Positions 8,048-23,016 of a stretch of 32,000 nucleotides of DNA are shown here, piece by piece (position 1 is the stretch's first letter; every line of letters begins with the position of its first letter). The position numbers and the translations under genes were made by a program. This DNA is from Candidatus Saccharimonas sp. Its GTDB lineage: Bacteria; Patescibacteriota; Saccharimonadia; Saccharimonadales; Saccharimonadaceae. Under the pieces are notes generated by a model. That model made no database searches. It saw only the letters and a list, made by a program, of their open reading frames with translations, and was not told where the DNA came from. The stretch lies in contig CP076101.2 of the NCBI GenBank assembly GCA_015256915.3, forward strand, positions 150,001-182,000. Reading direction: 5' to 3'.

Positions 8048-9064
8048 ATGAAAAAACTAACCATTCTAATGGTTGTGGGAATTCTTACTTTCTCTGGTTT
8101 TGTGAGTTTATTGACTGGCAAAAATGTATCCGCCGTTAAATCTGGCGACATGCAAAGTTTGGAAGAAGAAATCGCAAGTAATAAAGCTAAACTTGAAAAC
8201 CAAATAGCTTTTCTTAAGAATTTAGAAATTAAGGCAGATAAATATATTAAAAATGAAAGTTCAATTTCGCCATCAAATCAAGCTCAAAGATATTTAGAAA
8301 AATTGAATAAAGACGATTTTTATGTTCTTGAATATCGAGAAGCTGTTATGAAAGAGATTGAGCATATTAACGAATTGGCTGAGAAAAAATATCAAGGCGT
8401 TTATGAGCAACTTCCGGAATTAAAAGAATTGCAAGAACGAATTGCAAATGCAATTTTGGCGCTAACAGATGAAGGAAATTTTATCGCACATATCGAAAAT
8501 CGTCAAAAAGAACTTTTGGGTGAAAAAGATTTGAACAAAGCTGAGCAAAATGCAAAAATGCTTAAAGCTATCATTAATAGATATTTTAATAAATTGCGAG
8601 CTCAATATGGAAACGAGTTTCTTCTTGCTGATCGTTTCAAATCTAGCTTGATTGCTGGAATCGACAACGTTACAAATCAAATTAATAAAAAAATTGAAGA
8701 ACAAAAGATGAAGGCTGCTGAGGAAGAGCTCAAAAAGGCCGCACAAGAAGAAGCTGATCGTTTGAAGAAAGACGAAGAAAATAATTCTGACGCTTGGGAG
8801 AAAATCGCAAACGAAGAAAATAAGAAAAATGAGAATAAAAAGCAAGACGAAAAGCTTGATGAAAAACAGGGGCAGAATTTGAGCGAAGTAAAAGCTTCCG
8901 AATTACTTGAAAATCAAATTTCAAAAAAAGATAATAAACAGATTCAAAAACTTCAAGCTCCGAATACTGGTGAAAACCGAAAGCAGAGCTTCGAAATTGC
9001 TTTGATCAGTGTTATTTCAATAATTCTTGCGGTAATTTCTGGGGTTGTTATCAAACGACAATAA
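8048..9064 (+). CDS. secreted coiled-coil surface protein with C-terminal APNTG cell-wall sorting-type signal
   Basis: Signal peptide (MKKLTILMVVGILTFSGFVSLLTGKNVSA). Long Glu/Lys-rich heptad-like region. C-terminus has QAPNTGE (nt 8957-8971), a hydrophobic helix, then KRQ. Confidence 0.75.
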   Translation: MKKLTILMVVGILTFSGFVSLLTGKNVSAVKSGDMQSLEEEIASNKAKLENQIAFLKNLEIKADKYIKNESSISPSNQAQRYLEKLNKDDFYVLEYREAVMKEIEHINELAEKKYQGVYEQLPELKELQERIANAILALTDEGNFIAHIENRQKELLGEKDLNKAEQNAKMLKAIINRYFNKLRAQYGNEFLLADRFKSSLIAGIDNVTNQINKKIEEQKMKAAEEELKKAAQEEADRLKKDEENNSDAWEKIANEENKKNENKKQDEKLDEKQGQNLSEVKASELLENQISKKDNKQIQKLQAPNTGENRKQSFEIALISVISIILAVISGVVIKRQ

Positions 9065-9070
9065 AATTAT

Positions 9071-9100
9071 AGAAGAGAGGTAATTTGCCTCTTTTCTTTT
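9071..9100 (+). terminator. intrinsic terminator
   Basis: agaagagagg-taatttg-cctcttttct forms a ~10 bp stem, followed by a T-run. Confidence 0.65.
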
Positions 9101-9111
9101 TATGCAAAGTG

Positions 9112-9120
9112 TGGTAGAAT
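9112..9120 (+). promoter_or_regulatory. extended -10 promoter of rpsB-tsf with ~90 nt leader
   Basis: TGGTAGAAT. Unlike most housekeeping genes here, a long leader and an AAAGGAG SD follow. Confidence 0.45.
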
Positions 9121-9215
9121 TGAAAAGTATATAAATTTAATGAAACAATTTTTGGGAGAATTCCTTTCGAAAGCTTTTCGAAATTATCCCCAAAAATGAA
9201 GACAAAGGAGTTAAA

Positions 9216-9908
9216 ATGTCTGTAAAAGTTGATATCAAGCAATTGCTTGAAGCTGGCGTTCATTTTGGTCACAAAACTTCACGCTGGCACCCAAAAATGG
9301 CGCCATATATTCACAGTAAGCGTCAAGATAGCCACATTATTGATCTAACTAAAACTGTTGAAGGTCTTGAAAAAGCTCTTCCAGCTATTACTAAAGCGGT
9401 TGAATCTGGCCGAAAAGTTCTTTTTGTTGGAACTAAAAAACAAGTTAAAGAAGCTGTTCGTGAAGCTGCTGAAAGCGTAAAACAGCCATATGTTGTTGAA
9501 CGATGGGTTGGCGGAATGCTTACAAACTCAGCAACTGTAAACCAACAAATCAAGAAATTAAAAACTCTTGAAAAACGAATGGATAGCGGTGAGCTTTCAA
9601 AACGATATTCAAAACTTGAAGTTCAACGATACGCTGAAGAAATCGAAGCTTTAAACACAAAATACGGTGGAATCAAAGATTTGATGGGTCGCCCAGGAAT
9701 TTTGTTTGTAACTGATTCAATTGCTGACGCAAACGCAATTCGTGAAGCTAAAACTTTGAATATTCCAGTGGTTGCAATTGTTGATACAAATGTAAACCCA
9801 GATGGAATTGATTATGTAATTCCAGCAAATGATGACGCTATTAAAGGTGTTAAATTGCTTTTGGACTATGTGATCGAAGCTATCAAAGAAGCTAAAACTG
9901 ATAAATAA
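9216..9908 (+). CDS. rpsB: 30S ribosomal protein S2
   Basis: LLEAGVHFGHKTSRWHPKM N-terminal signature. 230 aa. Followed by tsf. Confidence 0.95.
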   Translation: MSVKVDIKQLLEAGVHFGHKTSRWHPKMAPYIHSKRQDSHIIDLTKTVEGLEKALPAITKAVESGRKVLFVGTKKQVKEAVREAAESVKQPYVVERWVGGMLTNSATVNQQIKKLKTLEKRMDSGELSKRYSKLEVQRYAEEIEALNTKYGGIKDLMGRPGILFVTDSIADANAIREAKTLNIPVVAIVDTNVNPDGIDYVIPANDDAIKGVKLLLDYVIEAIKEAKTDK

Positions 9909-9931
9909 TTCTTAAATTCGAAAGGATAAAA

Positions 9932-10528
9932 ATGGCTGTTTCTATTGAAGAAATTAAGAAACTTAAAGAATTGACAGGTCTTGGCTTGACCGATGCCAAA
10001 AAAGCCCTTATTGAAGCTGAAGGTGATTTTGATAAAGCGCTTGAAGCTCTTCGTAAAAAAGGTCTAACAAAAGCTGAGAAAAAAGGTGACCGCGAAGCTC
10101 GTGAAGGTTTGGTTGAAGCTTACGTTCACGGTGGTCGAATTGGTGTAATTGTTGAAGTTAACTGTGAAACTGATTTCGTTGCACGAACTGAAGATTTCAA
10201 AAACTTTGCACACCAAATTGCTATGCAAATTGCTGCTATGGCGCCAGTTTATGCTACTGAAGCTGATATTCCGGCTGAAGAAATTGCTCGTGTTAAAGCT
10301 GAAGCTGAAGAGCGAGTTTCGAAAGAAGGAAAGCCAGCTGAAATTGCTGCTAAAATTGTTGATGGCCAAGTAAAAAAATACTTTGCTGAAAAAGTTCTTC
10401 TTTCACAAGCTTACATTATGGATGACAGCAAAACTGTTGAACAATTCTTAAAAGAAACTGTTGCAAAACTTGGTGAAAATATCGTTGTGCGACAATTCTC
10501 ACGAATTGAACTCGGTGTTAACGAATAA
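9932..10528 (+). CDS. tsf: elongation factor Ts (short form)
   Basis: UBA-like N-terminus IKKLKELTGLGLTDAKKALIEAEGDFDKALEALRKKG and the core VEVNCETDFVART. 198 aa. Confidence 0.93.
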   Translation: MAVSIEEIKKLKELTGLGLTDAKKALIEAEGDFDKALEALRKKGLTKAEKKGDREAREGLVEAYVHGGRIGVIVEVNCETDFVARTEDFKNFAHQIAMQIAAMAPVYATEADIPAEEIARVKAEAEERVSKEGKPAEIAAKIVDGQVKKYFAEKVLLSQAYIMDDSKTVEQFLKETVAKLGENIVVRQFSRIELGVNE

Positions 10529-10547
10529 TAAATAGTGCATTTGTAAT

Positions 10548-10576
10548 AAAGCTCCACTAATAACGGTGGAGTTTTA
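10548..10576 (+). terminator. intrinsic terminator
   Basis: CTCCAC-taataacg-GTGGAG followed by TTTT. Confidence 0.7.
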
Positions 10577-10596
10577 TTTTTGTGATTATTTAAGCC

Positions 10597-10625
10597 TTGA
10601 CTTTTTATGCATAACCAGTTATAAT
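10597..10625 (+). promoter_or_regulatory. consensus sigma70 promoter of adhesin gene
   Basis: TTGACT-N17-TATAAT, both hexamers exact apart from the last -35 base. An AGGGAGAG SD precedes the ATG at 10663. Confidence 0.65.
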
Positions 10626-10662
10626 TTTATGAACATAAGTAATAGAAAATAAAGGGAGAGAA

Positions 10663-12204
10663 ATGTTTAAGAACAAAATAGCAGTTTATGCTTTTATGGG
10701 TGCTGTTTGTGCTATGTTTTTAGCTCAGCCCGCGTTTGCTGACACAGCAAAGAGAATTGATGTTGTCGCAACGGGTGAGATTAAAGAACTTACCATAGGG
10801 TCTGCATCTAATCGTACCAATACTAAAATTAATATAAATGTCAAAAATGGTCAGGTCATTAATGCCGGTGACTATGTTGATATTAGCTTGAATAATCTTT
10901 TTGATTATGGACTATTGAATAGGGATATTCGCTATAAAGATACAATTATTGGTAAAATTAAGTCTATTAAGGCTGAAGATAACTTAGACGGTTTCAAGCG
11001 AAGAGCTATAAAAGGTCATCCTGAAGCTGAGGATATTATACCAGAGAAAACTGTGGGTAGAAATTCAGAGTATAGGTTAATTTTTAATGAGCAAGCTAAG
11101 AAATTTACGAATATGGACCTTTCTATTGAACTTGTTGATTATAATTATGCCGGCTGGGTTAATCATAAATATAATGTTGAGCAATCCGTAAAGGTTAATG
11201 ATAAAGATATTGCGCGTAAAACCGGCACAATTAATGGGGTTGATAAAACATCGCCAGTAGTCGATTTTAGTTTTAGAATTTTTCATGCTTCTAGCCAAGA
11301 TGGCGAAAATTTAAATGGCGCTTTCTTTGATTTTGGATTGATGCAGTCCGATAAAAATAATCCTAAACATATTAAATCAGGTGATATTGTTAAGATGAAA
11401 TTACCACAATCTTCTGGTATTGCATTTGACATAAAATTGAATCCAAAAGAGGGAGCGGTCGGCACTATAAATACTCAAGAGCTATATGCTAATTTTGGTG
11501 ATAATGCTACTTCAAAAGGAGTCTTGCTTAAAACTGGTATAAACTTAAAATATAAAGTTATAAAAAACTCAAGCCACGAGCTTGTGTACCAGATTGTCGA
11601 GATTTCTAATGATAAAGCCTCGTATCAATTCTTACCAAGATTAACTATTTTAGACACTAGCGAAAAAACAGTTAACTATAATGAAGGTAAATTAAATCCA
11701 ATTTCTGCAACCACAGAAATTTACCGAGGTGATGATAAATATTTTTCTCTAGATAAACCAGCTGCAGGTGTTATAAGTGGTACGAAAATGAAATCTTACG
11801 CAGATATTAAAAAGCGTGGATCTGTGATTGTGCGATATCAAGATGAGAACGGTGTGAGCCTTGCTCCTGAAGTTTTATTAGCGAATAAAGTTCAAGTGGG
11901 TACAGATTATTCTGCCGAAGAAAAGCAATTCGAAGGATTCGAAAAAGCTGAACTATTTAAAAACTCATCGCCTAAAACTGGAAAAGTTGAAGAAGGTGTA
12001 AAGATTGTAACATTTGTTTATAAAAAGAAAAGCATTCCTGCGCCTGAAAAACCTTTGAATCTAGTAAAAGAAGAGAAGAAGCCAAAAGAAAATATTAGTG
12101 CACCAAACACAGGTTTTGAAAATAATTTTATTAAAAATTTACTTTTCATGGGCGGTGCTGCACTTTCTATAATTTCTATAATTGTTATTAGAAAAAACTA
12201 TTAA
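10663..12204 (+). CDS. cell-surface adhesin: signal peptide, MSCRAMM-like N-terminal region, MucBP-like domain, APNTG sorting-type signal
   Basis: Signal peptide ...LAQPAFA|DTAK. The MucBP-like segment GSVIVRYQDENGVSLAPE...GVKIVTFVYKKK spans nt 11818-12030. C-terminus has SAPNTGF (nt 12100-12114), a hydrophobic helix, then RKNY. Confidence 0.8.
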   Translation: MFKNKIAVYAFMGAVCAMFLAQPAFADTAKRIDVVATGEIKELTIGSASNRTNTKININVKNGQVINAGDYVDISLNNLFDYGLLNRDIRYKDTIIGKIKSIKAEDNLDGFKRRAIKGHPEAEDIIPEKTVGRNSEYRLIFNEQAKKFTNMDLSIELVDYNYAGWVNHKYNVEQSVKVNDKDIARKTGTINGVDKTSPVVDFSFRIFHASSQDGENLNGAFFDFGLMQSDKNNPKHIKSGDIVKMKLPQSSGIAFDIKLNPKEGAVGTINTQELYANFGDNATSKGVLLKTGINLKYKVIKNSSHELVYQIVEISNDKASYQFLPRLTILDTSEKTVNYNEGKLNPISATTEIYRGDDKYFSLDKPAAGVISGTKMKSYADIKKRGSVIVRYQDENGVSLAPEVLLANKVQVGTDYSAEEKQFEGFEKAELFKNSSPKTGKVEEGVKIVTFVYKKKSIPAPEKPLNLVKEEKKPKENISAPNTGFENNFIKNLLFMGGAALSIISIIVIRKNY

Positions 12205-12219
12205 ATAGAATAAATAAGA

Positions 12220-12257
12220 TAAAAGACCTCTTTCGCTAAAATTTAAGAGGTCTTTTA
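12220..12257. terminator. bidirectional intrinsic terminator (adhesin / orphan A convergent)
   Basis: AGACCTCT-ttcgctaaaattta-AGAGGTCT, flanked by A4 and T4. Confidence 0.75.
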
Positions 12258-12277
12258 TTGTTGTTGCTATGATTATA

Positions 12278-12595
12278 TTAAGCTAAACTCTTTTCGATAA
12301 AGGCGATTATTCGCACGTCGCGAGATTCTAACTCGCTTTCTTCATTAATTTCATTCACACCGAATATTTCTTCTGCGCCTTCACCAAATTTTGCATGCAA
12401 AGTTTTGATCCAGTTGCCATTTGCGAGCTTTTTTAGGCTAACATTTTCGCTAAAGCTCACACCACGAAAGAAGTTTTTTTCGTTGGGTAGTTCAATTTTT
12501 ATTTCTTTGTTATTTTTTTCAATCTTCAATTTAAAATTTTTCTTAAAAATTGGGTCAAAGTATTCAATTACTTTTTTAATCTTTTTTTGTTTCAT
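12278..12595 (-). CDS. orphan A: 105 aa hypothetical cytoplasmic protein
   Basis: Start set at MKQKKIKKVIEYFDP (ATG 12595), preceded by an AAGGAA SD. The 170 aa ORF in the track reads through the promoter and the upstream gene's terminator. No signal peptide or known motif. Confidence 0.65.
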   Translation of the reverse strand: MKQKKIKKVIEYFDPIFKKNFKLKIEKNNKEIKIELPNEKNFFRGVSFSENVSLKKLANGNWIKTLHAKFGEGAEEIFGVNEINEESELESRDVRIIAFIEKSLA

Positions 12596-12631
12596 TTGAT
12601 TCCTTTTTTGTTTTTGCTTTAAAACATAACT

Positions 12632-12660
12632 ATAATAACATAAAAAAATAAAAAAGTCAA
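12632..12660 (-). promoter_or_regulatory. sigma70 promoter of orphan A
   Basis: The minus strand reads TTGACT-N17-TATTAT. Confidence 0.6.
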
Positions 12661-12663
12661 TAG

Positions 12664-12688
12664 AAAACCCCGCCATTTTGGCGAGGCG
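12664..12688 (-). terminator. intrinsic terminator of orphan B
   Basis: The minus strand reads CCTCGCC-aaaat-GGCGGGG followed by TTTT. Confidence 0.7.
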
Positions 12689-12698
12689 TGTTGACCGC

Positions 12699-13073
12699 TT
12701 AGGGTTTATAATACTTGTGGCCCTTAGGAAGGAACTTCCTAATGTCGCCACGGAGCCAAACCCTAATATGCTTTTCACCATTTTTATCAAAGAATGCCAC
12801 TCTTTTCACTGTTTGGAATAGGGGACTCATTCGAATGGTGTTATTGATATAATAGAGATATTTCTCTTCAAAAATATCGCTAGCCGGAATTTCAATAATA
12901 TAACATTTTCCTGCAGAACAAGAACTGATCGCATTTTTAATCTCTTGATCGCTTAATCCTGCAAAAACTTCACGAATCTTCAATGAAAGTTTATCGTGAT
13001 AATCTTTCGCATCAATTGTGCGAGCTTTTTCGGTCAATTCTGCATTTGATCTAGTTGTAACAGCTGTACCCAT
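12699..13073 (-). CDS. orphan B: 124 aa hypothetical protein
   Basis: Start set at MGTAVTTRSN (ATG 13073), 8 nt after an AAGGAGG SD. No recognisable family. Contains CSAGKC. Confidence 0.7.
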   Translation of the reverse strand: MGTAVTTRSNAELTEKARTIDAKDYHDKLSLKIREVFAGLSDQEIKNAISSCSAGKCYIIEIPASDIFEEKYLYYINNTIRMSPLFQTVKRVAFFDKNGEKHIRVWLRGDIRKFLPKGHKYYKP

Positions 13074-13120
13074 AGTAGTCCTCCTTAAAGTGCATCCCCG
13101 AAGGGAATAGTGATATACCA

Positions 13121-13149
13121 ATTATACCACTTTTAAAAATAAAAGTCAA
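13121..13149 (-). promoter_or_regulatory. consensus sigma70 promoter of orphan B
   Basis: The minus strand reads TTGACT-N17-TATAAT. The 5' UTR contains a CCC-UUCG-GGG tetraloop hairpin (13096-13105). Confidence 0.65.
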
Positions 13150-13150
13150 T

Positions 13151-13180
13151 TAAAAAGCCCCAAATTTAAATTGGAGCTTA
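13151..13180 (-). terminator. intrinsic terminator of orphan C
   Basis: The minus strand reads AGCTCC-aatttaaattt-GGGGCT followed by TTTTT. Confidence 0.65.
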
Positions 13181-13184
13181 AGGA

Positions 13185-13847
13185 TTAAAAATCCAGTCCG
13201 TGTATTTGAACATACAGATTGTATCCCTTTTTTCGGGATTCACTATCAATGTGCGGTCGCCTGAAACCAGTAATATTTTTAAATACTGTCTTCTGTCTCT
13301 TTAGGTATCTATATAAGGATGACGGATGAATATTCTCTGGTAAAACAATTGGAATTTCAATCATTTTGTTAATGCGAATTTGCTCACAAAGATCGTCGTA
13401 TTCATCTTTCGAAAGTTTTCGAAGGTGTTTCTTAACTTCTTCCGATATTGCTTCATAATAAATATTAACTTTACCGTTTTGACTTGGCTTATCAGATTCC
13501 AAAATCAATTTTGGCTCTATTAGAAATATGATTTGTTCTACACCGTCTTTTTCAGCTTCATATTCTTCAAAAATATGAAACTTCCTATTGACGGTTCCGC
13601 GAACCTCAATAAATTTATCATTGCCATATCCTATTTCGATCGCTTCTTTCTTTGGAATACTAATCCTTGTGGAATACTTCCTCCAATGATCATAGTAATT
13701 GAATGGAATTGTTTGCCGTTCGGCAGATTGGCCGAGCTCTTTTATGATATGCCTAATAATCTTATATAAGATTATTGTATATTCTTCTTCAAGCTTTTTC
13801 AGCTTTTCTTCGCTTTGTAGAGGCCCAACGAGTTTACTTCTTTCCAT
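13185..13847 (-). CDS. orphan C: 220 aa hypothetical protein
   Basis: Start set at MERSKLVGP (ATG 13847), preceded by an AGGAGGAA SD. No signal peptide or TM segment, and no motif I recognise. Confidence 0.7.
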   Translation of the reverse strand: MERSKLVGPLQSEEKLKKLEEEYTIILYKIIRHIIKELGQSAERQTIPFNYYDHWRKYSTRISIPKKEAIEIGYGNDKFIEVRGTVNRKFHIFEEYEAEKDGVEQIIFLIEPKLILESDKPSQNGKVNIYYEAISEEVKKHLRKLSKDEYDDLCEQIRINKMIEIPIVLPENIHPSSLYRYLKRQKTVFKNITGFRRPHIDSESRKKGYNLYVQIHGLDF

Positions 13848-13904
13848 GAAAACTTCCTCCTGGATTTTTTTCTGCACAGTTTTTGAAAGAACTAATACTT
13901 ACAT

Positions 13905-13933
13905 ATTATATAATTTTATATTAATAAAGTCAA
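13905..13933 (-). promoter_or_regulatory. consensus sigma70 promoter of orphan C
   Basis: The minus strand reads TTGACT-N17-TATAAT. Confidence 0.65.
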
Positions 13934-13968
13934 GTTAAAAAGGGGTTATTTTTTTGCCGAAACTGTAG

Positions 13969-13974
13969 TATAAT
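13969..13974 (+). promoter_or_regulatory. -10 box of serS, leaderless
   Basis: TATAAT, then 6 nt (tattat), then the ATG at 13981. No SD. Confidence 0.45.
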
Positions 13975-13980
13975 TATTAT

Positions 13981-15243
13981 ATGTTAGATATTAGATTTAT
14001 TCGTGAAAATGCTGAGCGTGTGCAAAAAGATGCGTTGAATAAAGGTTATAAAAATGCTGATGTCCAAGCTGTCATTTCGCTCGACGACGAAAGAAAAGCT
14101 CTTACGGCTCAAATTGACGAACTTCGAACTCGCCGTAACCAAATTGCGGCCTCAATGAAAAACTCTGGTGGAAAGCCGAGTGATGAACAAATTGCAGAAG
14201 GCAAGAAAATCAAAGAAGAGCTTGCCGAGCTTGAAAAAACTTATCGCGAACTTGACGAAAAACTTTCGAATGCTTTAAACGGTATTCCAAATATTCTTCA
14301 AGCTGATGTGCCGATTGGTGAGGAAGGCGAAGATGATTTGGTAAAAGCTTGGGGCGAAGAACTTTTCGAAAGTCGTAAAGGTGCTGAAGACCACTTAGAT
14401 TTTGCAAACAAAAAAGGTTGGGTTGATTTTGAGCGTGGCTCGAAGGTTGCTGGAACGAAATTCTATTTCTTGAAAGGCGATTTGGCGCTTCTTGAAAATG
14501 CTATTTATCAGTTCGCTCTGAATAAATTGATTTCGAAAGGCTTTAATTTTATGACCGTTCCGCATATGGTTAATGGTGAAGTTGCCACGGGAACTGGATT
14601 TGCACCTCGTTCAAGCGAACAAAGTGATGAATATTTCATTGAAGGTGAGGATTTAAGTTTGATTGCAACTGCTGAAATGTCATTAACTGGTTATCATGCT
14701 GGTGAAATTTTGAACGAGAAAGATTTGCCAATTTTTTACGCTGGATATTCTCCTTGCTATCGAAAAGAGGCGGGAACTTACGGTAAGCACACGCGCGGGC
14801 TTTTCCGTGTTCATCAGTTCAACAAGCTTGAAATGTATGCCTATGCCTTACCGGAGCAAAGTGTTGATGTCCACGAGAAAATTTTGGTGGTGGAAGAAGA
14901 GATTTATCAAGAGCTTGGTATTCCTTATCGCGTGATTAATATCGCGAGTGGCGACTTGGGCGCACCAGCTTCAAAGAAATATGATATTGAATATTGGAGC
15001 CCAGTCGATGGTAGTTATCGCGAGATTACGAGCTGCTCAAACTGCACCGACTATCAAGCACGAAATTTGAATATTCGCGTGCGTCGTGAAAATGGTGAAT
15101 TGCAAGTTGTTCACACTTTGAATGGTACAGCTGTTTCACTTGCGCGATGTTTGGTGGCGGCAATTGAAAATTTTCAAGATGGGGAAGATCTTGTTTTACC
15201 AAAAGTTCTTCGACCATATATGAATAATCGCGAACGAATCTAA
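13981..15243 (+). CDS. serS: seryl-tRNA synthetase
   Basis: N-terminal coiled-coil arm (MLDIRFIRENAE...). Class II motif 2 is FRVHQFNKLE and motif 3 is GTAVSLARCLVAAIEN. 420 aa. Confidence 0.94.
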   Translation: MLDIRFIRENAERVQKDALNKGYKNADVQAVISLDDERKALTAQIDELRTRRNQIAASMKNSGGKPSDEQIAEGKKIKEELAELEKTYRELDEKLSNALNGIPNILQADVPIGEEGEDDLVKAWGEELFESRKGAEDHLDFANKKGWVDFERGSKVAGTKFYFLKGDLALLENAIYQFALNKLISKGFNFMTVPHMVNGEVATGTGFAPRSSEQSDEYFIEGEDLSLIATAEMSLTGYHAGEILNEKDLPIFYAGYSPCYRKEAGTYGKHTRGLFRVHQFNKLEMYAYALPEQSVDVHEKILVVEEEIYQELGIPYRVINIASGDLGAPASKKYDIEYWSPVDGSYREITSCSNCTDYQARNLNIRVRRENGELQVVHTLNGTAVSLARCLVAAIENFQDGEDLVLPKVLRPYMNNRERI

Positions 15244-15252
15244 AAAATAAAA

Positions 15253-15308
15253 TAAGCACTAAATATAGAGTTTTGTAAATTTTACAACACTATATATAGT
15301 GCTTTTTT
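15253..15308 (+). terminator. long hairpin terminator after serS
   Basis: AAGCACTAAATATAG ... CTATATATAGTGCTT gives a ~15 bp stem with 1 mismatch, plus inner pairing, followed by T6. Confidence 0.7.
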
Positions 15309-15318
15309 GATTTGTTTA

Positions 15319-15327
15319 TGCTATAAT
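15319..15327 (+). promoter_or_regulatory. extended -10 promoter of nrdH-like gene
   Basis: TGcTATAAT. Followed by a ~25 nt leader with an AAGAAGG SD. Confidence 0.45.
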
Positions 15328-15359
15328 CTAAATATAAATTAAGAAAGAAGGTGTCTAAT

Positions 15360-15623
15360 ATGCCAGTACTTTTCGTAGCTAAAAATTGTATGGCTTGCAC
15401 TATGACAAAAAAACAACTAGAAAGAGAAGGTGTTTTAGATTGTTTTACTATTTATGATGCAAGCAATGACCCTGATGGTTCTATAGCGATAATGACTGAC
15501 GAGTTGAAGCGGGACTACGGTCTATCGGGCGCTCCGTTCGTAGACCCAAGAGATTTGGGCCTCGAACCTTTTGTTGGGTTTAATCCCGATAAAATCAATG
15601 AAGTTATAGACAAGCTTAAGTAG
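15360..15623 (+). CDS. nrdH: NrdH-like glutaredoxin-fold redoxin
   Basis: CxxC motif (NCMAC) near the N-terminus and a C-terminal FVGFNPDKI resembling the NrdH WSGFRPDKI signature. The ATG at 15360 is preferred over the GTG at 15351, which lies inside the SD. Confidence 0.7.
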   Translation: MPVLFVAKNCMACTMTKKQLEREGVLDCFTIYDASNDPDGSIAIMTDELKRDYGLSGAPFVDPRDLGLEPFVGFNPDKINEVIDKLK

Positions 15624-15632
15624 CTAGTGTAG

Positions 15633-15656
15633 AGCTCGCATTCGCGGGCTTTTTTC
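15633..15656 (+). terminator. intrinsic terminator
   Basis: AGCTCGC-attc-GCGGGCT followed by T6. Confidence 0.7.
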
Positions 15657-15685
15657 TTGACAAAATAAAATGTTTATGCTAATAT
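15657..15685 (+). promoter_or_regulatory. sigma70 promoter of hpf
   Basis: TTGACA-N17-TAATAT. Confidence 0.6.
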
Positions 15686-15716
15686 AGAGATATAAACTAA
15701 CAAAAAAGGATTATAT

Positions 15717-16085
15717 ATGATCTCACAGATTGAAATTACAGGAAATAAATACGAAATTGACGAAACGACCAAAAAATACGCAGAAAAACACATCGGTAAA
15801 TTAGATAAATATTTGCCACGACATGCTAAAAAATCAGCTTCAGCTCGCGTGGTGATTTCGCAAATCAATGGCACTCACGATAATAAATATGAAGTTGAGG
15901 CGGTTATTAACGTACCAGACAAAACTCTTGTTGCAAAAGACCAAAGTTCAAATGTTTTAGCGGCAATCGATATTGTTGAAGCGAAGCTTGATGGGCAAAT
16001 TCGCCGTTATAAAACTGAGAAAAATCCACGCCTTGGCAAAGCTGGTATTATGGCGAAATTCAAGCGTTCTCTAAAACGTGGCTAA
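15717..16085 (+). CDS. hpf: ribosome hibernation promoting factor / RaiA family (short form)
   Basis: S30AE-family pattern: IEITGNKYEIDETTKKYAEKHIGKLDKY...YEVEAVINVP...SSNVLAAIDIVEAKLDGQIRRYK. Confidence 0.85.
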   Translation: MISQIEITGNKYEIDETTKKYAEKHIGKLDKYLPRHAKKSASARVVISQINGTHDNKYEVEAVINVPDKTLVAKDQSSNVLAAIDIVEAKLDGQIRRYKTEKNPRLGKAGIMAKFKRSLKRG

Positions 16086-16103
16086 AAACTTTCGAAAACT
16101 TAA

Positions 16104-16138
16104 AAAATCTCTGCAATCTGGCAGAGATTTTGCTTTTT
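16104..16138 (+). terminator. intrinsic terminator
   Basis: AATCTCTGC-aatctg-GCAGAGATT followed by a T-rich run. Confidence 0.7.
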
Positions 16139-16157
16139 AAATAAAATATGATATAAT
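16130..16157 (+). promoter_or_regulatory. promoter of orphan operon 16198-17194
   Basis: TTGCTT-N16-(TGa)TATAAT. The leader carries a GGGGGTGA SD. Confidence 0.5.
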
Positions 16158-16197
16158 TAAGCTATTGCTATTTTAAAATTTTTGTGGGGGTGAAAAT

Positions 16198-16749
16198 ATG
16201 AATAAACACACAAATGAGCAGCAAGAACTTTTACGTGAGATGTTACATCGCAAGTCGAGTGAAATACTAGCTTGCCTTCATCGTAAACAGGAAAGTGAGT
16301 CTTCTATAACGTATAGGATTGTGTTTTTTCGAAAAGATGGGAAGAATATAATTCCAGAAATTGGTGTTCGAGTTCAATTTTTGAAAGAGATTGAAGACCT
16401 CAAAGGTGATTCGGTTTTTACTGTTTTAGATTGGTTTTTCGAGCAAGATCAAGGTTTGGAATATCGACCATGTAAGGTTGAAATAATTGGTCGTGGTATG
16501 CTCAAAGAATTAAGCATTGAAGAATGCCTTGAGAATTATAGGCATTTTGTTTGGTATAATTCCTTAAGTTGGACTGATCGGCTTTTCGAAATTCAAGATA
16601 TCGCAGAAGTTATTAAGCGCGAATTTATGAGTGGAGAAAGCAAAGAAGTGGTTGGTCAAGATTTAACATATCTTGGCGAAAGAGTCCAGGATATTATACC
16701 TTATTTTTGCATGCATATTAATGAAGGAGATTTTAGCTATGAATGGTGA
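16198..16749 (+). CDS. orphan F: 183 aa hypothetical protein (Trp- and Cys/His-containing)
   Basis: Good SD. No signal peptide. Has four Cys in the contexts ACLH, PCK, ECLENYRH and FCMH. No family recognised. Confidence 0.7.
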   Translation: MNKHTNEQQELLREMLHRKSSEILACLHRKQESESSITYRIVFFRKDGKNIIPEIGVRVQFLKEIEDLKGDSVFTVLDWFFEQDQGLEYRPCKVEIIGRGMLKELSIEECLENYRHFVWYNSLSWTDRLFEIQDIAEVIKREFMSGESKEVVGQDLTYLGERVQDIIPYFCMHINEGDFSYEW

Positions 16750-17194
16750 ATTAACAATTAAAGACTTATTCAGAAAATATGGTCGGCGATTCGTAACTAT
16801 CTTTAAGAATGCTGATGGTATTAATACTGTTGGCTTCTATGAAATCATTACAGTTAAAGGTGAACCGCCAATAATTAAGCTGAAAGTAGTTGAATTTGAT
16901 GAAAATAATCAAGAGCTTTTTATTTCAAGTGATGACGAAGGAGAAAACTGGTTTGAAGCTTATGAATTGAAAACTCTTGTTGAAAATGGATTTTTCTTTC
17001 CACTTTCCAGCCCGCCAACTAAAGCTAGTAGAAGATACCTAAAATTACTTGATAAATATCGAAAATTAGCTTTGAAAGTTTTTGAATATGAAAAGTTGCT
17101 TGATGATCTTGAGCTCTTTTCTCAGAAGTATGAACAGCTTAGAGTTGAGATAATTAATTCTTTGAATGATGTTATCAACACGGTTTTTGAATAA
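16739..17194 (+). CDS. orphan G: 151 aa hypothetical protein with C-terminal coiled coil
   Basis: Start set at MNGELTIKD (ATG 16739), 8 nt after a GAAGGAGA SD. It overlaps the end of orphan F by 11 nt, suggesting translational coupling. Confidence 0.7.
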   Translation: MNGELTIKDLFRKYGRRFVTIFKNADGINTVGFYEIITVKGEPPIIKLKVVEFDENNQELFISSDDEGENWFEAYELKTLVENGFFFPLSSPPTKASRRYLKLLDKYRKLALKVFEYEKLLDDLELFSQKYEQLRVEIINSLNDVINTVFE

Positions 17195-17217
17195 AGTCCT
17201 GAAAGGGGCTTTTTTTA
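17195..17217 (+). terminator. intrinsic terminator (GAAA tetraloop)
   Basis: AGTCCT-gaaa-GGGGCT (includes G-U pairs) followed by T7. Confidence 0.55.
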
Positions 17218-17229
17218 ATATTCAAATTA

Positions 17230-17238
17230 TGGTAAAAT
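17230..17238 (+). promoter_or_regulatory. extended -10 promoter of secA
   Basis: TGGTAAAAT. The leader carries a GGAGAGGG SD before the ATG at 17277. Confidence 0.45.
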
Positions 17239-17276
17239 ATAAGATAGATTTTATACTGTTTTTAATGGAGAGGGAA

Positions 17277-19937
17277 ATGTCTAAAAAAACTGCGAAGAAA
17301 AAAAATGTAATGGTGGAAGAAAACAAAGTTGATAAACTTTTGACTACTGTTTTTGGTGACCCGCAAAAGAAAGTTTTGCGCCGATTGCAACGAAAAGTTG
17401 ATGAAATTAATAATCTAAGCGAAAAATACAAAAAAATGAGTGATGAAAAGCTCAAAGAAGCTTTTAAAAAACTCAAAAAAAGCCTTTCGAAAAAAGATTT
17501 AGATGATATTTTGCCAGATGTTTTTGCGCTTGTGCGTGAAGCTTCAACTCGTGTGCTTGGAATGCGACATTTTGATGTTCAATTGATTGGTGGAATGGTT
17601 TTACATGAAGGAAAAGTTGCAGAAATGAAAACTGGTGAAGGTAAAACTTTGGTGGCAACTTTACCGGTTTCTCTTAACGCGATGGAAGGAAAAGGCGTTC
17701 ATGTTGTAACCGTGAACGATTATCTTGCTCAGCGCGATGCATCTTGGATGGGTAATCTATATGATTTTCTTGGCCTTTCGGTTGGTGTAATTATTAATGA
17801 AACAAGCTTTATTTTTGATCCAGAATATGACAACGAAGAACACGAAGATGAAAATATGCGAAAGCTTCGCCCAGCAACTCGAAAAGAGGCTTATGCGGCA
17901 GATATTACCTATGGAACAAATAATGAATTTGGCTTTGATTATTTGCGTGATAACATGGTGAATGAAGTTGAACTTTTACGCCAGCGTGAGCTTAATTTTG
18001 CAATTGTCGATGAGGTTGATTCTATCTTAATCGATGAGGCTCGAACTCCATTAATTATTTCTGCTCCTGCGGCTGAAAACCCAGAAAGCTATATTCAATT
18101 TGCGCAAGTTATTTCGCAGCTTTCGAAAGATGATTATGAAGTTGATGAAAAACGCCGAAGTGTAGCATTGACTGAATCTGGAATTGATAAAATCGAAAAA
18201 CTTCTCAATATGAAGAATCTTTACACGCCAGAACATTCTCGTGCAGTTTACCATGTTGAGCAAGCTTTGCGTGCTGAAACCCTCTTCAAACGTGACAAAG
18301 ATTATGTTGTGACAAATGATGGTGAGGTGATTATTGTTGATGAACACACTGGTCGTTTAATGAACGGTCGTCGATACAATGAAGGCCTACACCAAGCTAT
18401 TGAGGCGAAAGAAAAAGTGCCGGTTCTTCAAGAATCAATGACACTTGCTACAATTTCGTTCCAGAATTTCTTCCGCCTTTATAATAAACTTTCTGGTATG
18501 ACTGGAACTGCTTTTACTGAGGCCGAAGAATTTCAACAAATTTATTCTTTAGAGGTTGTGCAAATTCCTTCGAATAAACCAGTTATCCGTGACGATAAAG
18601 AAGACTTAATCTTTAAAACTGAAAAGGCAAAACTTAAAGCCGTTGCAGAAGCAATTAAAGAATATCATGCACAAGGTCGCCCAGTTTTGGTTGGTTCAGG
18701 TTCAATTGAAAAGAATGAACAAATTGCGAAATATCTTGATCAAGAAGGAATCAAGTATAACCTTTTGAATGCTAAAAATAACGAACATGAAGCCGCAATT
18801 GTAGCGCGTGCTGGAGAAAAAGGCGCAATTACGCTCGCAACGAATATTGCTGGTCGTGGAACCGATATTAAGCTTGGTAAAGGCGTGAAAGAATTGGGTG
18901 GACTAGTTGTTATTGGTTCAGAACGTCATGAATCTCGCCGAATCGATAATCAGTTCCGTGGTCGTGGTGGACGTCAGGGTGACCCTGGTGAAACGCAATT
19001 TTATGTTTCAACTGAAGATGATTTGATGCGAATTTTCCAGGGTGAACGAATTGCAATGTTGATGGATAGACTCGGTGTGCCAGAAGATATGCCAATCCAG
19101 CATAAATCTGTTTCGAAAACTCTTGAGAACGCTCAAAAACGTGTTGAAGGCTTTAATTTTGATACGCGTAAAAATGTTGTTCAATACGATAATGTGATTA
19201 ATCGTCACCGAAAAGTTGTCTACACGATGCGCCGAAAAATTCTTGAAGGCGAAGATATTACAGATGAAATTAAGGCTTTGTTTATTTCTAAAGCAGAAGA
19301 ACTTGCTGAACTTCCTTCAAAAAATAACGAAAAGTTTGTTTCGAATTTTACTGAAATCTTCCCAATCGAAGAAGAGAAAATTGAAGCACTTGGTCGAATT
19401 TCGAACGATAAAAAACGTATGAAATTAGCAAAACATATTGCCGAAGAACTTTACCAAGATAAAGAAAATGAGATCGGTAAAGAAGCGTTCCAAAAAGTTG
19501 AACGTGAAGTTTATATGCAAATTCTTGATACGCTTTGGATGAACCATCTTGAAAATATGAATTTCTTGCGTGAAGGAATTCATTGGCGAAGTGTTGGCCA
19601 GCGTGATCCGTTAGTTGAATATCGTGCTGAATCACAAAAATTGTTTGATGGTTTGCAAAATACTTTGCGTGATGAGACTATTCGAATTTTAACTAGAATT
19701 ACACCTAATGATGCTGCTGTTCGTCAAGAAGAAGATCATGATACCGAGCTCACTCGCCTTGCTGAAAATTCGGTTGAGAAAGGTGTTAATGAAATTCAAT
19801 CTGGTGAAAAAAACCGAGATGAAGACTTTTCGAAAGCTAAAAAAGTGTCTTCAAAAAATAGTGAAAATGCCAAGAAAAATAACGCACGGAAAGCTAAAAA
19901 AGCTCAACGTCAGAACAAGAGGAAGGGTCGTAAATAA
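17277..19937 (+). CDS. secA: preprotein translocase ATPase SecA
   Basis: Walker A MKTGEGKTL and DEAD-like VDEVDSILIDEARTPLIIS. TNIAGRGTDIKLG is also present. Start set at MSKKTAKKK after the SD. The C-terminus is a Lys/Arg-rich tail with no Cys-rich zinc motif. Confidence 0.95.
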   Translation: MSKKTAKKKNVMVEENKVDKLLTTVFGDPQKKVLRRLQRKVDEINNLSEKYKKMSDEKLKEAFKKLKKSLSKKDLDDILPDVFALVREASTRVLGMRHFDVQLIGGMVLHEGKVAEMKTGEGKTLVATLPVSLNAMEGKGVHVVTVNDYLAQRDASWMGNLYDFLGLSVGVIINETSFIFDPEYDNEEHEDENMRKLRPATRKEAYAADITYGTNNEFGFDYLRDNMVNEVELLRQRELNFAIVDEVDSILIDEARTPLIISAPAAENPESYIQFAQVISQLSKDDYEVDEKRRSVALTESGIDKIEKLLNMKNLYTPEHSRAVYHVEQALRAETLFKRDKDYVVTNDGEVIIVDEHTGRLMNGRRYNEGLHQAIEAKEKVPVLQESMTLATISFQNFFRLYNKLSGMTGTAFTEAEEFQQIYSLEVVQIPSNKPVIRDDKEDLIFKTEKAKLKAVAEAIKEYHAQGRPVLVGSGSIEKNEQIAKYLDQEGIKYNLLNAKNNEHEAAIVARAGEKGAITLATNIAGRGTDIKLGKGVKELGGLVVIGSERHESRRIDNQFRGRGGRQGDPGETQFYVSTEDDLMRIFQGERIAMLMDRLGVPEDMPIQHKSVSKTLENAQKRVEGFNFDTRKNVVQYDNVINRHRKVVYTMRRKILEGEDITDEIKALFISKAEELAELPSKNNEKFVSNFTEIFPIEEEKIEALGRISNDKKRMKLAKHIAEELYQDKENEIGKEAFQKVEREVYMQILDTLWMNHLENMNFLREGIHWRSVGQRDPLVEYRAESQKLFDGLQNTLRDETIRILTRITPNDAAVRQEEDHDTELTRLAENSVEKGVNEIQSGEKNRDEDFSKAKKVSSKNSENAKKNNARKAKKAQRQNKRKGRK

Positions 19938-22630: not shown

Positions 22631-22731
22631 CTAAACCGAAAAAATGAAAACTTGTGTTTTATATCTACCACGAGAATCTCCTTCTGCAATATGAAGGAGA
22701 AGGTCTATCTTGTGTCGTTTACAAAAGTCAA

Positions 22732-22990: not shown

Positions 22991-23016
22991 TTGCCACCTC
23001 CATTTTTAGTTTTAAT

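What the first reader, a model, noticed from the sequence alone, without database searches (positions are those of the whole stretch)
12205..13980. Three consecutive self-contained orphan gene cassettes between an adhesin gene and serS
Three minus-strand genes have no family I can recognise: A (105 aa), B (124 aa) and C (220 aa). Each is a stand-alone unit with its own promoter, SD and terminator.

- Promoters are TTGACT-N17-TATAAT (TATTAT for A).
- SD sequences are AAGGAGG, AGGAGGAA and AAGGAA.
- Each has its own hairpin plus U-tract terminator.

The array therefore reads terminator-promoter-gene three times in 1.7 kb. None has a signal peptide or a TM segment. The region looks more AT-rich than the flanking housekeeping genes by eye (not computed). 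Most housekeeping genes in the window have only a -10 box and no leader.

Tightly packed, individually and probably strongly expressed genes of unknown function form a plausible accessory island. Candidate roles include host-interaction, immunity, anti-defence or defence factors. I cannot assign a function.
Basis: partly seen in the sequence, partly recalled or inferred. Interest (0 to 1): 0.7.

Follow-up and report, generated by a model that had tools for sequence, protein, structure and literature searches.

The report
Hypervariable orphan gene cassettes in TM7
Three small genes of unknown function in an uncultivated human oral bacterium (Saccharibacteria/TM7, clade G6) are real, separately switched genes, and two of them vary enormously between near-identical strains and are swapped like cassettes, the pattern usually seen in genes caught in an arms race.

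Summary
Genes A (105 aa), B (124 aa) and C (220 aa) lie on the minus strand. Each has a near-consensus sigma-70 promoter, a Shine-Dalgarno sequence and a hairpin/U-tract terminator, and these signals are conserved across the genus. None matches Pfam, NCBIfam, PHROGs, PADLOC, PDB sequences or PDB/BFVD folds.

The window is an oral Saccharibacteria G6 (Nanogingivalaceae) genome. The trio is not a mobile or presence/absence island. It occupies the same tsf–serS slot in every genus-level relative with enough upstream sequence, has ordinary composition, and is absent from phage and plasmid collections.

New results:
- B and C form a sharply bounded divergence island. Flanking proteins are 93–100% identical, but B is 40–71% and C 58–89% identical.
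- dS is raised two- to five-fold or saturated; dN/dS is about 0.2–0.4 against about 0.04 in the flanks.
- There are at least 9 deep B allele classes.
- C is mosaic, and B and C alleles reassort independently across the conserved terminator–promoter joint.
- B appears to be a paralogue of C's C-terminal domain.
- A is conserved.

Function is unproven. The best reading is abundant cytoplasmic binding proteins whose surfaces diversify against a variable antagonist (phage, host bacterium or competitor).

The parts
12219..12258 (.). Bidirectional intrinsic terminator shared by gene A (minus strand) and the convergent MucBP adhesin gene (plus strand). It has a 14-bp stem and U-tracts on both strands.
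   Evidence: Folds at -16.6 kcal/mol (minus strand) and -20.4 kcal/mol (plus strand), z about -5.2, with 0 of 200 shuffles folding as well.
12278..12595 (-). Gene A, 105 aa, basic (pI 9.3) and lysine-rich at the N-terminus. It is a genus-restricted orphan but is conserved.
   Evidence: 29 homologue clusters, all unnamed. dN/dS is 0.05, and identity to relatives is 78-99% in two allele types of 105 and 108 aa. The only family hint is a sub-threshold FKBP26_C hit (21.9 bits against a cut-off of 27, in 6 of 16 members).
12600..12605 (-). Shine-Dalgarno sequence of A (AAGGAA).
   Evidence: Read from the sequence. Invariant in 15 relatives.
12632..12660 (-). Promoter of A: TTGACT-N17-TATTAT with a TG extension.
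   Evidence: Promoter scan, 10 of 12 matches. Both hexamers are invariant in all 15 aligned relatives.
12667..12687 (-). Intrinsic terminator of B (9-bp G+C-rich stem, then UUUUCU). It marks the low-coordinate boundary of the divergence island.
   Evidence: -14.8 kcal/mol, z = -3.0. Compensatory stem changes occur in L020 and L022.
12699..13073 (-). Gene B, 124 aa, pI 9.4. It is a hypervariable allelic cassette with a single alpha-alpha-beta-alpha-beta-beta domain and a conserved basic tail, WL(R/K)GDIRKFLPK.
   Evidence: AlphaFold2 pLDDT 83. 79 clusters at 90% identity, and at least 9 classes at 70% identity. Identity to relatives is 40-71% while the flanks are 93-100%. dN 0.32, dS 1.35 or saturated, dN/dS 0.2-0.4.
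13080..13086 (-). Shine-Dalgarno sequence of B (AAGGAGG).
   Evidence: An AAGGAGG or closely similar purine-rich Shine-Dalgarno is present in all 15 aligned relatives (displaced in the alignment in L022) although the neighbouring 5'UTR varies.
13121..13149 (-). Promoter of B: TTGACT-N17-TATAAT with a TG extension. Together with the C terminator it forms the conserved joint across which B and C alleles reassort.
   Evidence: The 29-nt sequence is identical in L101, where the C protein is only 37% identical. It is conserved in all relatives.
13155..13179 (-). Intrinsic terminator of C.
   Evidence: -11.5 kcal/mol, z = -2.4. Conserved, with compensatory changes in L022.
13185..13496 (-). C-terminal domain of C (residues 118-220), a B-like alpha-alpha-beta-alpha-beta-beta domain carrying the invariant GFRRPH..SE.RK.GYNLYV motif.
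   Evidence: pLDDT is about 88 over this half. hhalign against B gives E = 2.4e-5, probability 75.5%, over 79 columns. Control comparisons give E of 0.03-0.8. The secondary-structure order matches that of B.
13497..13847 (-). N-terminal half of C (residues 1-117): an amphipathic helix followed by a beta-rich domain with invariant KISIPK and EEYEAEKDG motifs. It recombines independently of the C-terminal half.
   Evidence: Low-confidence model, pLDDT 28-70. Mosaic structure: against L014 the N half is 8% and the C half 36% distant, and against L018 the values are 36% and 16%.
13854..13861 (-). Shine-Dalgarno sequence of C (AGGAGGAA).
   Evidence: Conserved.
13905..13933 (-). Promoter of C: TTGACT-N17-TATAAT, placed back to back with the serS promoter.
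   Evidence: Conserved in all 15 relatives.
13945..13975 (+). Divergent serS promoter (extended -10, no -35). It marks the high-coordinate boundary of the cassette array.
   Evidence: Repeat family D1. The intergenic alignment is conserved.

Best explanation
**Shown.**
- A, B and C are three genus-restricted, independently transcribed genes of an oral Saccharibacteria G6 (Nanogingivalaceae) lineage.
- They are fixed in the tsf-serS interval of that genus.
- A is a conserved small basic protein.
- B and C are two hypervariable allelic cassettes.
- Each keeps a conserved hydrophobic core and a conserved basic motif. In B this is WLRGDIRKFL; in C it is GFRRPH..SE.RK.GYNLYV. The remaining positions, interleaved with the conserved ones, are replaced wholesale.
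- B is probably a duplicate of C's C-terminal alpha/beta domain.
- Deep allele lineages are shared among species and strains.
- Alleles are re-sorted by homologous recombination. The breakpoints fall in the conserved terminator-promoter joints and inside C.

**Inferred.**
- The conserved near-consensus promoters and strong SDs make these abundant, constitutively made cytoplasmic proteins.
- Their variable surfaces are specificity determinants kept diverse by frequency-dependent selection from a variable antagonist.
- The antagonist would be phage proteins, toxins or defences of the bacterial host on which the epibiont lives, or competing strains.
- The conserved motif docks each protein to an invariant partner, possibly nucleic acid given pI of about 9.
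- Because B and C alleles reassort freely, they act as two independent recognition modules, not as a matched pair.
For: **Lineage restriction.**
- A profile HMM of C searched against 1.84 billion representative proteins finds only one full-length 50% cluster, plus one 192-aa divergent relative (P0233, profile positions 37-220) and fragments.
- B has 79 clusters and A has 29, all unnamed.

**Fixed position.**
- Every relative with serS at 93% identity or more that has enough upstream sequence carries the trio upstream of serS (L015 has only about 130 nt upstream).
- Relatives with serS at 84% or less do not carry it within 6 kb of serS.

**Divergence island.**
- Nucleotide identity falls from about 94-97% to 60-85% exactly over 12600-13800, then recovers in serS.
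- dN is 10-25 times that of the flanks.
- dS is 2-5 times that of the flanks, or saturated.
- dN/dS is 0.2-0.4 against about 0.04.

**Functional constraint.**
- No disrupted B or C copy was noticed among the roughly 55 loci examined, although ORF integrity was not checked locus by locus.
- 78 columns of C and 24 columns of B are invariant.
- Promoters, SDs and terminators are conserved.
- The B promoter is identical over 29 nt even where C is only 37% identical.

**Allele sharing and incongruence with the species tree.**
- C of L023 and L063 is closer to the window (dS 0.22-0.29) than their serS is (dS 0.82).
- Mantel tests against serS distances are not significant.

**Independent reassortment.**
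- L018 and L021: C 99% identical, B 57%.
- L013 and L018: B 95% identical, C 77%.
- L114 and the window: C 100% identical, B 71%.

**Recombination.** The PHI test gives p <= 0.003 for both B and C.

**Paralogy of B and C's C-terminal domain.**

**Not mobile.**
Against: - No window of either gene has pN/pS above 1; the maximum is 0.82. Positive selection is therefore not demonstrated, and relaxed constraint plus recombination could produce much of the pattern.
- Other lineage-specific genes nearby are as variable or more so: orf183 at 32-97% identity, grx replaced or absent, and the N-terminal part of the adhesin. Hypervariability may be a general property of non-housekeeping genes in this genus.
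- PHI also detects recombination in serS and rpsB.
- No antagonist, partner or biochemical activity is identified.
- No fold match exists: best TM-score is below 0.3.
- Expression is inferred only.
- The B / C-terminal-domain homology rests on one profile alignment (probability 75%) and on matching predicted topology.
Confidence: 0.5

Rival explanations
1. B and C are ordinary fast-evolving orphan genes. They are young, weakly constrained proteins of marginal function. Their divergence reflects relaxed purifying selection plus the high recombination of this genus, with no arms race involved.
For: - dN/dS is 0.2-0.4 and never exceeds 1 in any 15-codon window.
- Neighbouring orphans (orf183, orf173, grx) are equally or more divergent.
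- Recombination is also detectable in housekeeping genes.
Against: - No disrupted B or C copy was noticed among the roughly 55 loci examined, whereas the adhesin next door and cassette E are often frameshifted.
- Many residues are invariant and the regulatory DNA is strongly conserved.
- Synonymous divergence is itself 2-5 times the background, and alleles are discrete and shared across species. Relaxed protein constraint does not explain either.
- Orphan A, in the same array, is under tight constraint (dN/dS 0.05).
Confidence: 0.25
2. The trio is a horizontally acquired accessory or defence island, or a toxin-antitoxin-like module.
For: - The genes are small, tightly packed and of unknown function, next to a variable adhesin.
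- One A-like gene lies beside an IS110-family transposase and inovirus-like genes on an IMG/VR contig (L100).
Against: - There are no PADLOC, PHROG or Pfam hits.
- The trio is present at the same locus in every genus member with enough sequence.
- GC and GC3 are normal.
- There is no tRNA, integrase or flanking repeat.
- B and C are absent from IMG/VR, INPHARED phages and PLSDB plasmids.
- The monocistronic layout with a terminator between genes, and the free reassortment of B and C alleles, are the opposite of a co-regulated cognate toxin-antitoxin pair.
Confidence: 0.07
3. B and C are effectors exported without a Sec signal, for example by the type IV secretion or pilus-related machinery of Saccharibacteria, into or onto the host bacterium. 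They would diversify against host targets, and the conserved basic C-terminal motif would be the export or docking signal.
For: - There is no signal peptide, yet the evolution is arms-race-like.
- The conserved, positively charged C-terminal segment sits in an otherwise variable protein.
- The genes are adjacent to a sortase-anchored MucBP adhesin.
- A VirB6/TrbL-like membrane protein sits upstream of serS in an outgroup (L027; this family assignment was made by eye and not tested).
Against: - No secretion-system gene lies in this window's neighbourhood.
- The tail of B is predicted to be ordered and packed (pLDDT above 90), unlike a flexible signal.
- No test of export is possible with these tools.
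Confidence: 0.12
4. The divergence is mutational. A, B and C are strongly transcribed head-on to replication, because the cumulative GC skew rises through the window and almost all genes are on the plus strand. Replication-transcription conflicts would then raise the local mutation rate.
For: - Cumulative GC skew rises monotonically except over minus-strand genes.
- dS as well as dN is elevated.
Against: - Gene A has the same orientation and a similar promoter but is conserved.
- The intergenic DNA inside the island is nearly invariant.
- Alleles are discrete, shared among species and mosaic. This indicates old lineages plus recombination, not in-situ hypermutation.
Confidence: 0.05

Closest known systems
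Polymorphic 'pherotype' or recognition loci flanked by conserved core genes (Bacillus comQXP, Staphylococcus agrBDC, Streptococcus comCD/blp). This comparison is from established knowledge, not tested here.
   Same: - A sharply bounded island of deep allelic divergence inside otherwise near-identical chromosomes.
- Discrete allele classes shared across species.
- Allele exchange by homologous recombination in the conserved flanks.
   Different: - No peptide precursor, membrane sensor kinase or processing enzyme is present.
- The proteins are soluble, basic orphans.
- The two variable genes reassort independently instead of co-varying as interacting partners.
- Each has its own promoter and terminator.
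Orphan immunity-gene arrays against polymorphic toxins (for example acquired interbacterial defence clusters of Bacteroidales, or orphan cdiI / rhs immunity genes). This comparison is from established knowledge.
   Same: - Small cytoplasmic proteins of 100-220 aa.
- Tandem and individually expressed.
- Highly variable, with no adjacent toxin.
   Different: - Those arrays vary by gene content and sit on mobile elements.
- Here the same two families occupy a fixed core locus and vary by allele.
- No Imm/SUKH-type family is detected.
Type I restriction specificity subunit (HsdS) domain shuffling. This comparison is from established knowledge.
   Same: Mosaic exchange of two half-protein modules across conserved joints, generating new combinations (the N and C halves of C).
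   Different: - No Methylase_S domain is detected.
- No hsdM or hsdR gene is nearby.
- C is half the size of HsdS.
- The fold is unrelated.
G6-specific core genes of unknown function (Baker 2021, mSphere, PMC8386444).
   Same: A, B and C fit the description of clade-restricted core genes without an assigned function. That paper reports that only about 50% of 244 G6 core genes have putative functions.
   Different: That study did not describe allelic hypervariability, cassette reassortment or these genes specifically. No paper found in two full-text searches does.

Membership tests
Sigma-70-type promoter / intrinsic terminator transcription units | -35 and -10 hexamers close to consensus at 17-nt spacing, more frequent than chance. 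| tested here: met
   The three promoters match 11, 11 and 10 of 12 positions. The exact TTGACT-N17-TATAAT pattern occurs 5 times against 0.02 expected.
Sigma-70-type promoter / intrinsic terminator transcription units | Phylogenetic conservation of the signals relative to surrounding sequence. | tested here: met
   Hexamers, SDs and terminator stems are conserved in 15 relatives, with compensatory stem changes. The B promoter is identical where C is 37% identical.
Sigma-70-type promoter / intrinsic terminator transcription units | Mapped transcription start and end points, and measured expression level. | not testable with these tools
   No RNA-seq or TSS data are accessible.
Type II toxin-antitoxin module | Two co-transcribed, closely spaced or overlapping genes under one autoregulated promoter. 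| tested here: not met
   Each gene has its own promoter and is separated from the next by a terminator.
Type II toxin-antitoxin module | A recognisable toxin or antitoxin domain. | tested here: not met
   No Pfam, NCBIfam or PADLOC hit. An AbrB/MazE-like look of C residues 57-85 was not supported: hhalign E = 0.13, and the reversed control scored better.
Type II toxin-antitoxin module | Cognate pairs stay matched (co-variation of the partners). | tested here: not met
   B and C alleles reassort freely. For example C is 99% and B 57% identical between L018 and L021, and C is 100% and B 71% between the window and L114.
Known anti-phage defence systems (PADLOC-DB v2) | An HMM match to a component of a described system. 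| tested here: not met
   0 families at E <= 1 for A, B and C.
Mobile genomic island / prophage remnant | Integrase or tRNA target, flanking repeats, and atypical composition. | tested here: not met
   No tRNA. No flanking direct or inverted repeats. GC and GC3 lie within the gene distribution.
Mobile genomic island / prophage remnant | Variable presence among close relatives, and homologues on phages or plasmids. | tested here: not met
   Present at the same site in every genus-level locus with enough upstream sequence. No B or C homologue in IMG/VR, INPHARED or PLSDB. One A-like gene sits next to an IS110 element on L100.
Diversity-generating retroelement target | A nearby reverse transcriptase and a template/variable repeat pair, with variation confined to a C-terminal variable region. 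| tested here: not met
   No repeat pair lies in 9000-17500. No RT-sized ORF adjoins B or C and the nearest genes are a MucBP adhesin and serS. Variation is spread along both genes and includes synonymous sites.
Balanced or diversifying polymorphic locus (pherotype-like) | A sharply bounded divergence island with elevated dN and dS inside conserved flanks. | tested here: met
Balanced or diversifying polymorphic locus (pherotype-like) | Discrete allele classes shared across species or strains and incongruent with the species tree. | tested here: met
   At least 9 B classes at 70% identity. B ranges from 61.5 to 100% among contigs with identical Tsf.
Balanced or diversifying polymorphic locus (pherotype-like) | Sites or windows with dN/dS above 1. 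| tested here: not met
   The maximum window pN/pS is 0.82 and gene-wide values are 0.2-0.44. Proper site models could not be run.
KH / ribosomal protein S8-like small alpha/beta RNA-binding folds | A significant structural superposition and the family motif (GXXG for KH). | tested here: inconclusive

The most novel reading that the evidence does not exclude
B and C would be the specificity modules of a previously unrecognised recognition or immunity layer in ultra-small epibiotic bacteria. They would be abundant cytoplasmic proteins built on a new alpha/beta fold, each binding a variable phage-, host- or competitor-derived molecule. They would be maintained as a trans-species balanced polymorphism and re-sorted as plug-in cassettes. 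The conserved terminator-promoter joints would serve both as expression signals and as recombination homology.
Probability: 0.25. Interest if true: 0.75.

Novelty: new variant of a known kind. Interest (0 to 1): 0.5.

Why it matters
**Open question.** Saccharibacteria are obligate epibionts, and what determines their strain-level host range, phage susceptibility and competition is essentially unknown. Clade G6 has no cultivated representative.

**What this locus offers.**
- It is compact and easy to type: about 1.2 kb between conserved anchors.
- It has at least 9 to 19 deep allele classes that reassort among otherwise near-identical genomes.
- It is therefore a concrete candidate for a specificity determinant.
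- It is also a ready-made strain marker for oral metagenomics.

**Wider point.** In reduced CPR genomes, conserved regulatory joints can act as boundaries for allele-cassette exchange, a form of modular evolution without any mobile-element machinery.

**If the rival explanation holds.** If B and C prove to be merely weakly constrained orphans, the result still calibrates how fast lineage-specific genes turn over in this group.

Tried and rejected
**Family searches that found nothing significant.**
- Pfam, PHROGs, PADLOC and NCBIfam on single proteins and on whole alignments.
- The only repeated hint is a sub-threshold FKBP26_C hit for A.

**Structure-based searches.**
- PDB sequence profiles: 0 hits at E <= 1.
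- Foldseek against PDB and BFVD: no match at E <= 0.001 and TM below 0.3.

**AbrB/MazE idea for C.**
- By eye, residues 57-85 of C (STRISIPKKEAIEIGYGNDKFIEVRG) resemble an AbrB/MazE swapped-hairpin domain.
- A domain-only profile found no such PDB or Pfam hit.
- hhalign against AbrB, Abh, SpoVT and MazE sequences recalled from memory gave E = 0.13, worse than a reversed-sequence control. Rejected.

**Common origin of all three genes.**
- Only B and the C-terminal domain of C are related.
- A, the N-terminal half of C, orphans D and E, and orf183 are unrelated: E of 0.04-0.8.

**B-C coevolution as an interacting pair.**
- The Mantel correlation between B and the C-terminal half of C is r = 0.40.
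- That equals the correlation between the two halves of C, so it is explained by linkage. Alleles reassort freely.

**Mobile origin.**
- Three IMG/VR scans, phage tblastn and plasmid blastn gave nothing for B or C.

**Other checks.**
- DGR: no template/variable repeat pair and no adjacent RT-sized ORF.
- Rfam and tRNA scans of the window: nothing.
- Literature: two full-text searches and three papers gave no prior description of these genes or of this locus's variability.


Full report
**1. What is there**

The minus strand between the MucBP adhesin gene (10663-12204, plus strand) and serS (13981-15243, plus strand) carries three ORFs. With the start codons indicated by their Shine-Dalgarno sequences they are:
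- A, 12278-12595, 105 aa;
- B, 12699-13073, 124 aa;
- C, 13185-13847, 220 aa.

Independent gene calls on public contigs give the same lengths.

The consensus scan finds three promoters:
- TTGACT-N17-TATAAT at 13933-13905 (C);
- the same motif at 13149-13121 (B, TG-extended);
- TTGACT-N17-TATTAT at 12660-12632 (A).

The exact 29-nt pattern occurs five times in the window against 0.02 expected. The other three copies precede the adhesin, greA and another orphan gene.

Three hairpin/U-tract terminators fold at -11.5, -14.8 and -16.6 kcal/mol (z = -2.4 to -5.3). The last is bidirectional and also serves the convergent adhesin gene.

The proteins are hydrophilic and basic (pI 8.9-9.4) and have no hydrophobic segment.

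The region is only slightly AT-rich: 32.8% GC against 35.3% for the window. The coding sequences have ordinary GC and GC3.

**2. Organism and distribution**

Exact and near-exact copies occur on many human oral metagenome contigs.

A serS-anchored scan of 185,579 species genomes returned Saccharibacteria only. Relatives with serS at 93% identity or more include a 'Candidatus Nanogingivalaceae' MAG. Candidatus Nanogingivalis gingivitcus (TM7 G6, HOT-870) has serS at 77%.

- Every genus-level locus with enough upstream sequence has tsf-(adhesin)-A-B-C-serS in the same order and orientation.
- Loci with serS at 84% or less have a different upstream neighbourhood and no A, B or C homologue within 6 kb of serS.
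- A profile of C searched against 1.84 billion representative proteins finds one full-length cluster, one 192-aa divergent relative and fragments.
- B and C have no homologue in IMG/VR, INPHARED phages or PLSDB plasmids.
- The window has no tRNA, Rfam hit or island-type repeat.

The trio is thus a genus-specific core feature and not a mobile accessory island.

**3. No known family or fold**

- Pfam, NCBIfam, PHROGs and PADLOC give nothing significant, either for single sequences or for all alignment members.
- PDB sequence profiles give nothing.
- AlphaFold2 models B confidently (pLDDT 83) as alpha-alpha-beta-alpha-beta-beta.
- C is modelled poorly in its N-terminal half. Residues 124-220 are modelled well (pLDDT about 88) and have the same order of secondary-structure elements.
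- Foldseek against PDB and BFVD finds no match at E <= 0.001. The best hits are ribosomal protein S8 and KH domains, with query-normalised TM-scores below 0.3.
- Profile-profile comparison aligns C(128-206) with B(23-113) at E = 2.4e-5 and probability 75.5%. Eleven control comparisons give E of 0.03-0.8.

I conclude, tentatively, that B is a paralogue of C's C-terminal domain.

**4. The unexpected result: B and C are a divergence island**

Against species-level relatives, flanking proteins are 93-100% identical. B is only 40-71% identical and C 58-89%. A is 78-99% identical.

Sliding nucleotide identity drops from about 95% to 60-85% exactly between the B terminator and the C start codon, then recovers in serS.

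| Gene(s) | dN | dS | dN/dS |
|---|---|---|---|
| rpsB, tsf, serS, hpf | 0.011-0.030 | 0.29-0.65 | about 0.04 |
| A | – | – | 0.05 |
| B | 0.32 | 1.35 (21 of 120 pairs saturated) | 0.23 |
| C | 0.19 | 0.89 | 0.21 |

These are Nei-Gojobori medians. The ratio stays at 0.2-0.44 in every divergence class.

- B falls into at least 9 classes at 70% identity and 19 at 80%. C falls into 14 classes at 80%.
- No disrupted B or C copy was noticed, and 78 columns of C and 24 of B are invariant.
- Variable and conserved positions interleave along the helices. The most conserved stretch in both families is a basic motif at the equivalent place: WLRGDIRKFL in B and GFRRPH..SE.RK in C.

**5. Alleles are old, shared and shuffled**

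- Distances in B and C do not follow serS distances; the Mantel tests are not significant.
- C of L023 and L063 is closer to the window (dS 0.22-0.29) than their serS is (dS 0.82). C of L011 is far (dS 1.5) although its serS is near (dS 0.35).
- C is mosaic. Against L014 the N half is 8% and the C half 36% distant; against L018 the values are 36% and 16%.
- B and C reassort independently:
  - L018 and L021: C 99% identical, B 57%.
  - L013 and L018: B 95% identical, C 77%.
  - Among contigs with identical Tsf, B ranges from 61.5 to 100% and C from 87 to 100%.
  - L114 has C 100% and B 71% identical to the window.
- PHI indicates recombination in both genes (p <= 0.003), and also in serS and rpsB.
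- The intergenic terminator-promoter joints are nearly invariant, with compensatory changes in the stems.
- In L101, where C is 37% and B 55% identical, the 29-nt B promoter is identical to the window's.

Conserved regulatory joints delimit independently exchangeable coding units.

**6. Interpretation**

Shown:
- independent transcription-unit architecture that is phylogenetically conserved;
- genus restriction and a fixed position;
- purifying selection on a core of residues;
- deep, shared, recombining allele lineages for B and C, with a conserved A.

Inferred:
- high constitutive expression;
- a cytoplasmic location;
- variable surfaces acting as specificity determinants under frequency-dependent selection from a variable antagonist (phage, host bacterium or competitor);
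- a conserved motif that contacts an invariant partner.

Free reassortment argues against B and C being a matched pair, so a toxin-antitoxin, toxin-immunity or ligand-receptor relationship is unlikely.

The main caveats are these:
- No window reaches pN/pS above 1.
- Neighbouring orphans (orf183, orf173, grx, the N-terminal part of the adhesin) are similarly or more variable.
- 'Weakly constrained orphan genes in a highly recombining genus' therefore remains a serious rival.

Against that rival stand several points. dS is elevated. Alleles are discrete and trans-specific. No disrupted B or C copy was noticed, while the adjacent adhesin and cassette E are often frameshifted. Regulatory DNA is strongly conserved. 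Orphan A, in the same array, is under tight constraint.

**7. Comparison with known systems**

The behaviour is closest to polymorphic recognition or pherotype loci and to orphan immunity genes. Every family-specific feature tested was absent:
- no kinase, peptide precursor or immunity domain;
- no co-variation between the two genes;
- no mobile context.

[quoted passage not shown] I found no description of this locus.

**8. Verdict**

- The accessory-island interpretation is partly supported. The cassette and conflict flavour holds for B and C. The mobility and accessory claims do not hold, and none of it holds for A.
- Novelty: a new variant of a known kind. It is a balanced or diversifying allelic locus built from unknown protein families, with regulatory joints as recombination boundaries.
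- Interest is moderate (0.5). The evolutionary pattern is clean and useful, but function is unknown and positive selection is not demonstrated.

Noticed in passing
window 22631-23529 (minus strand): A second pair of monocistronic orphan cassettes lies between xseB and frr, with the same terminator-promoter-SD-gene layout.
- D is 23092-23451 (119 aa), with an exact TTGACT-N17-TATAAT at 23529-23501.
- E is 22631-22990, with promoter TTGACT-N17-TAAAAT at 23045-23017.
- E is intact (119 aa) in L001 and L003 but carries two frameshifts (+A and -A) in the window and in L002.
- Neither is related to A, B or C.
   Followed up: partly
window 15351-15623 and 16198-17194: Two further divergence islands lie in the conserved serS-hpf-secA backbone. 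The small glutaredoxin-like gene is replaced or absent in many close relatives. The two orphans upstream of secA (183 aa and 173 aa) range from 32 to 97% identity.
   Followed up: partly
window 10663-12204: The MucBP adhesin, which ends in an APNTG sortase-like motif plus a transmembrane anchor, is an insertion/deletion polymorphism. It is absent in L016, L020, L022-L024 and L112. It is split by frameshifts in several strains (L002, L102, L109, L114, L118, L120). Its N-terminal part is only about 65-70% identical at the nucleotide level between species.
   Followed up: partly
L112 (whole locus) against window 9216-15243: A recombination breakpoint lies between tsf and A. The rpsB-tsf segment is 99.85% identical to the window at the nucleotide level. 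Everything from A to serS comes from the other clade: A 78%, B 61.5%, serS 86.6% nucleotide identity, and the adhesin is absent.
   Followed up: yes
L100:1-4990 (IMG/VR UViG_3300008637_000131): An A-like gene (77% identical) sits at the end of a contig, directly after an IS110-family transposase and Zot-like / inovirus-like genes. This is either an IS or filamentous-phage insertion next to A in some strain, or a chimeric assembly.
   Followed up: no
window 13087-13110 (minus strand, B 5'UTR): A small stem-loop, TCCC-(UUCG or a variable loop)-GGGA, lies just upstream of the B Shine-Dalgarno. The stem is conserved and the loop varies across alleles. It is not thermodynamically significant on its own (z = +0.8).
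   Followed up: partly
window 12740-12751 (B residues 108-111): A conserved RGD or KGD tripeptide sits in the invariant tail of B, WL(R/K)GDIRKFLPK. It is probably coincidental for a protein without an export signal.
   Followed up: no
window 9091-9121, 13945-13975, 16128-16158, 17209-17239: The housekeeping genes rpsB, serS and others use a shared extended -10 promoter type (TGnTAtAAT) without a -35 box. This contrasts with the full-consensus promoters of the adhesin, B, C, D and greA.
   Followed up: partly
window 14800-15000 (inside serS): A local patch of lower identity (83-90%) to all relatives lies within the otherwise roughly 95% identical serS. This suggests an imported recombinant segment in the window's lineage.
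   Followed up: no
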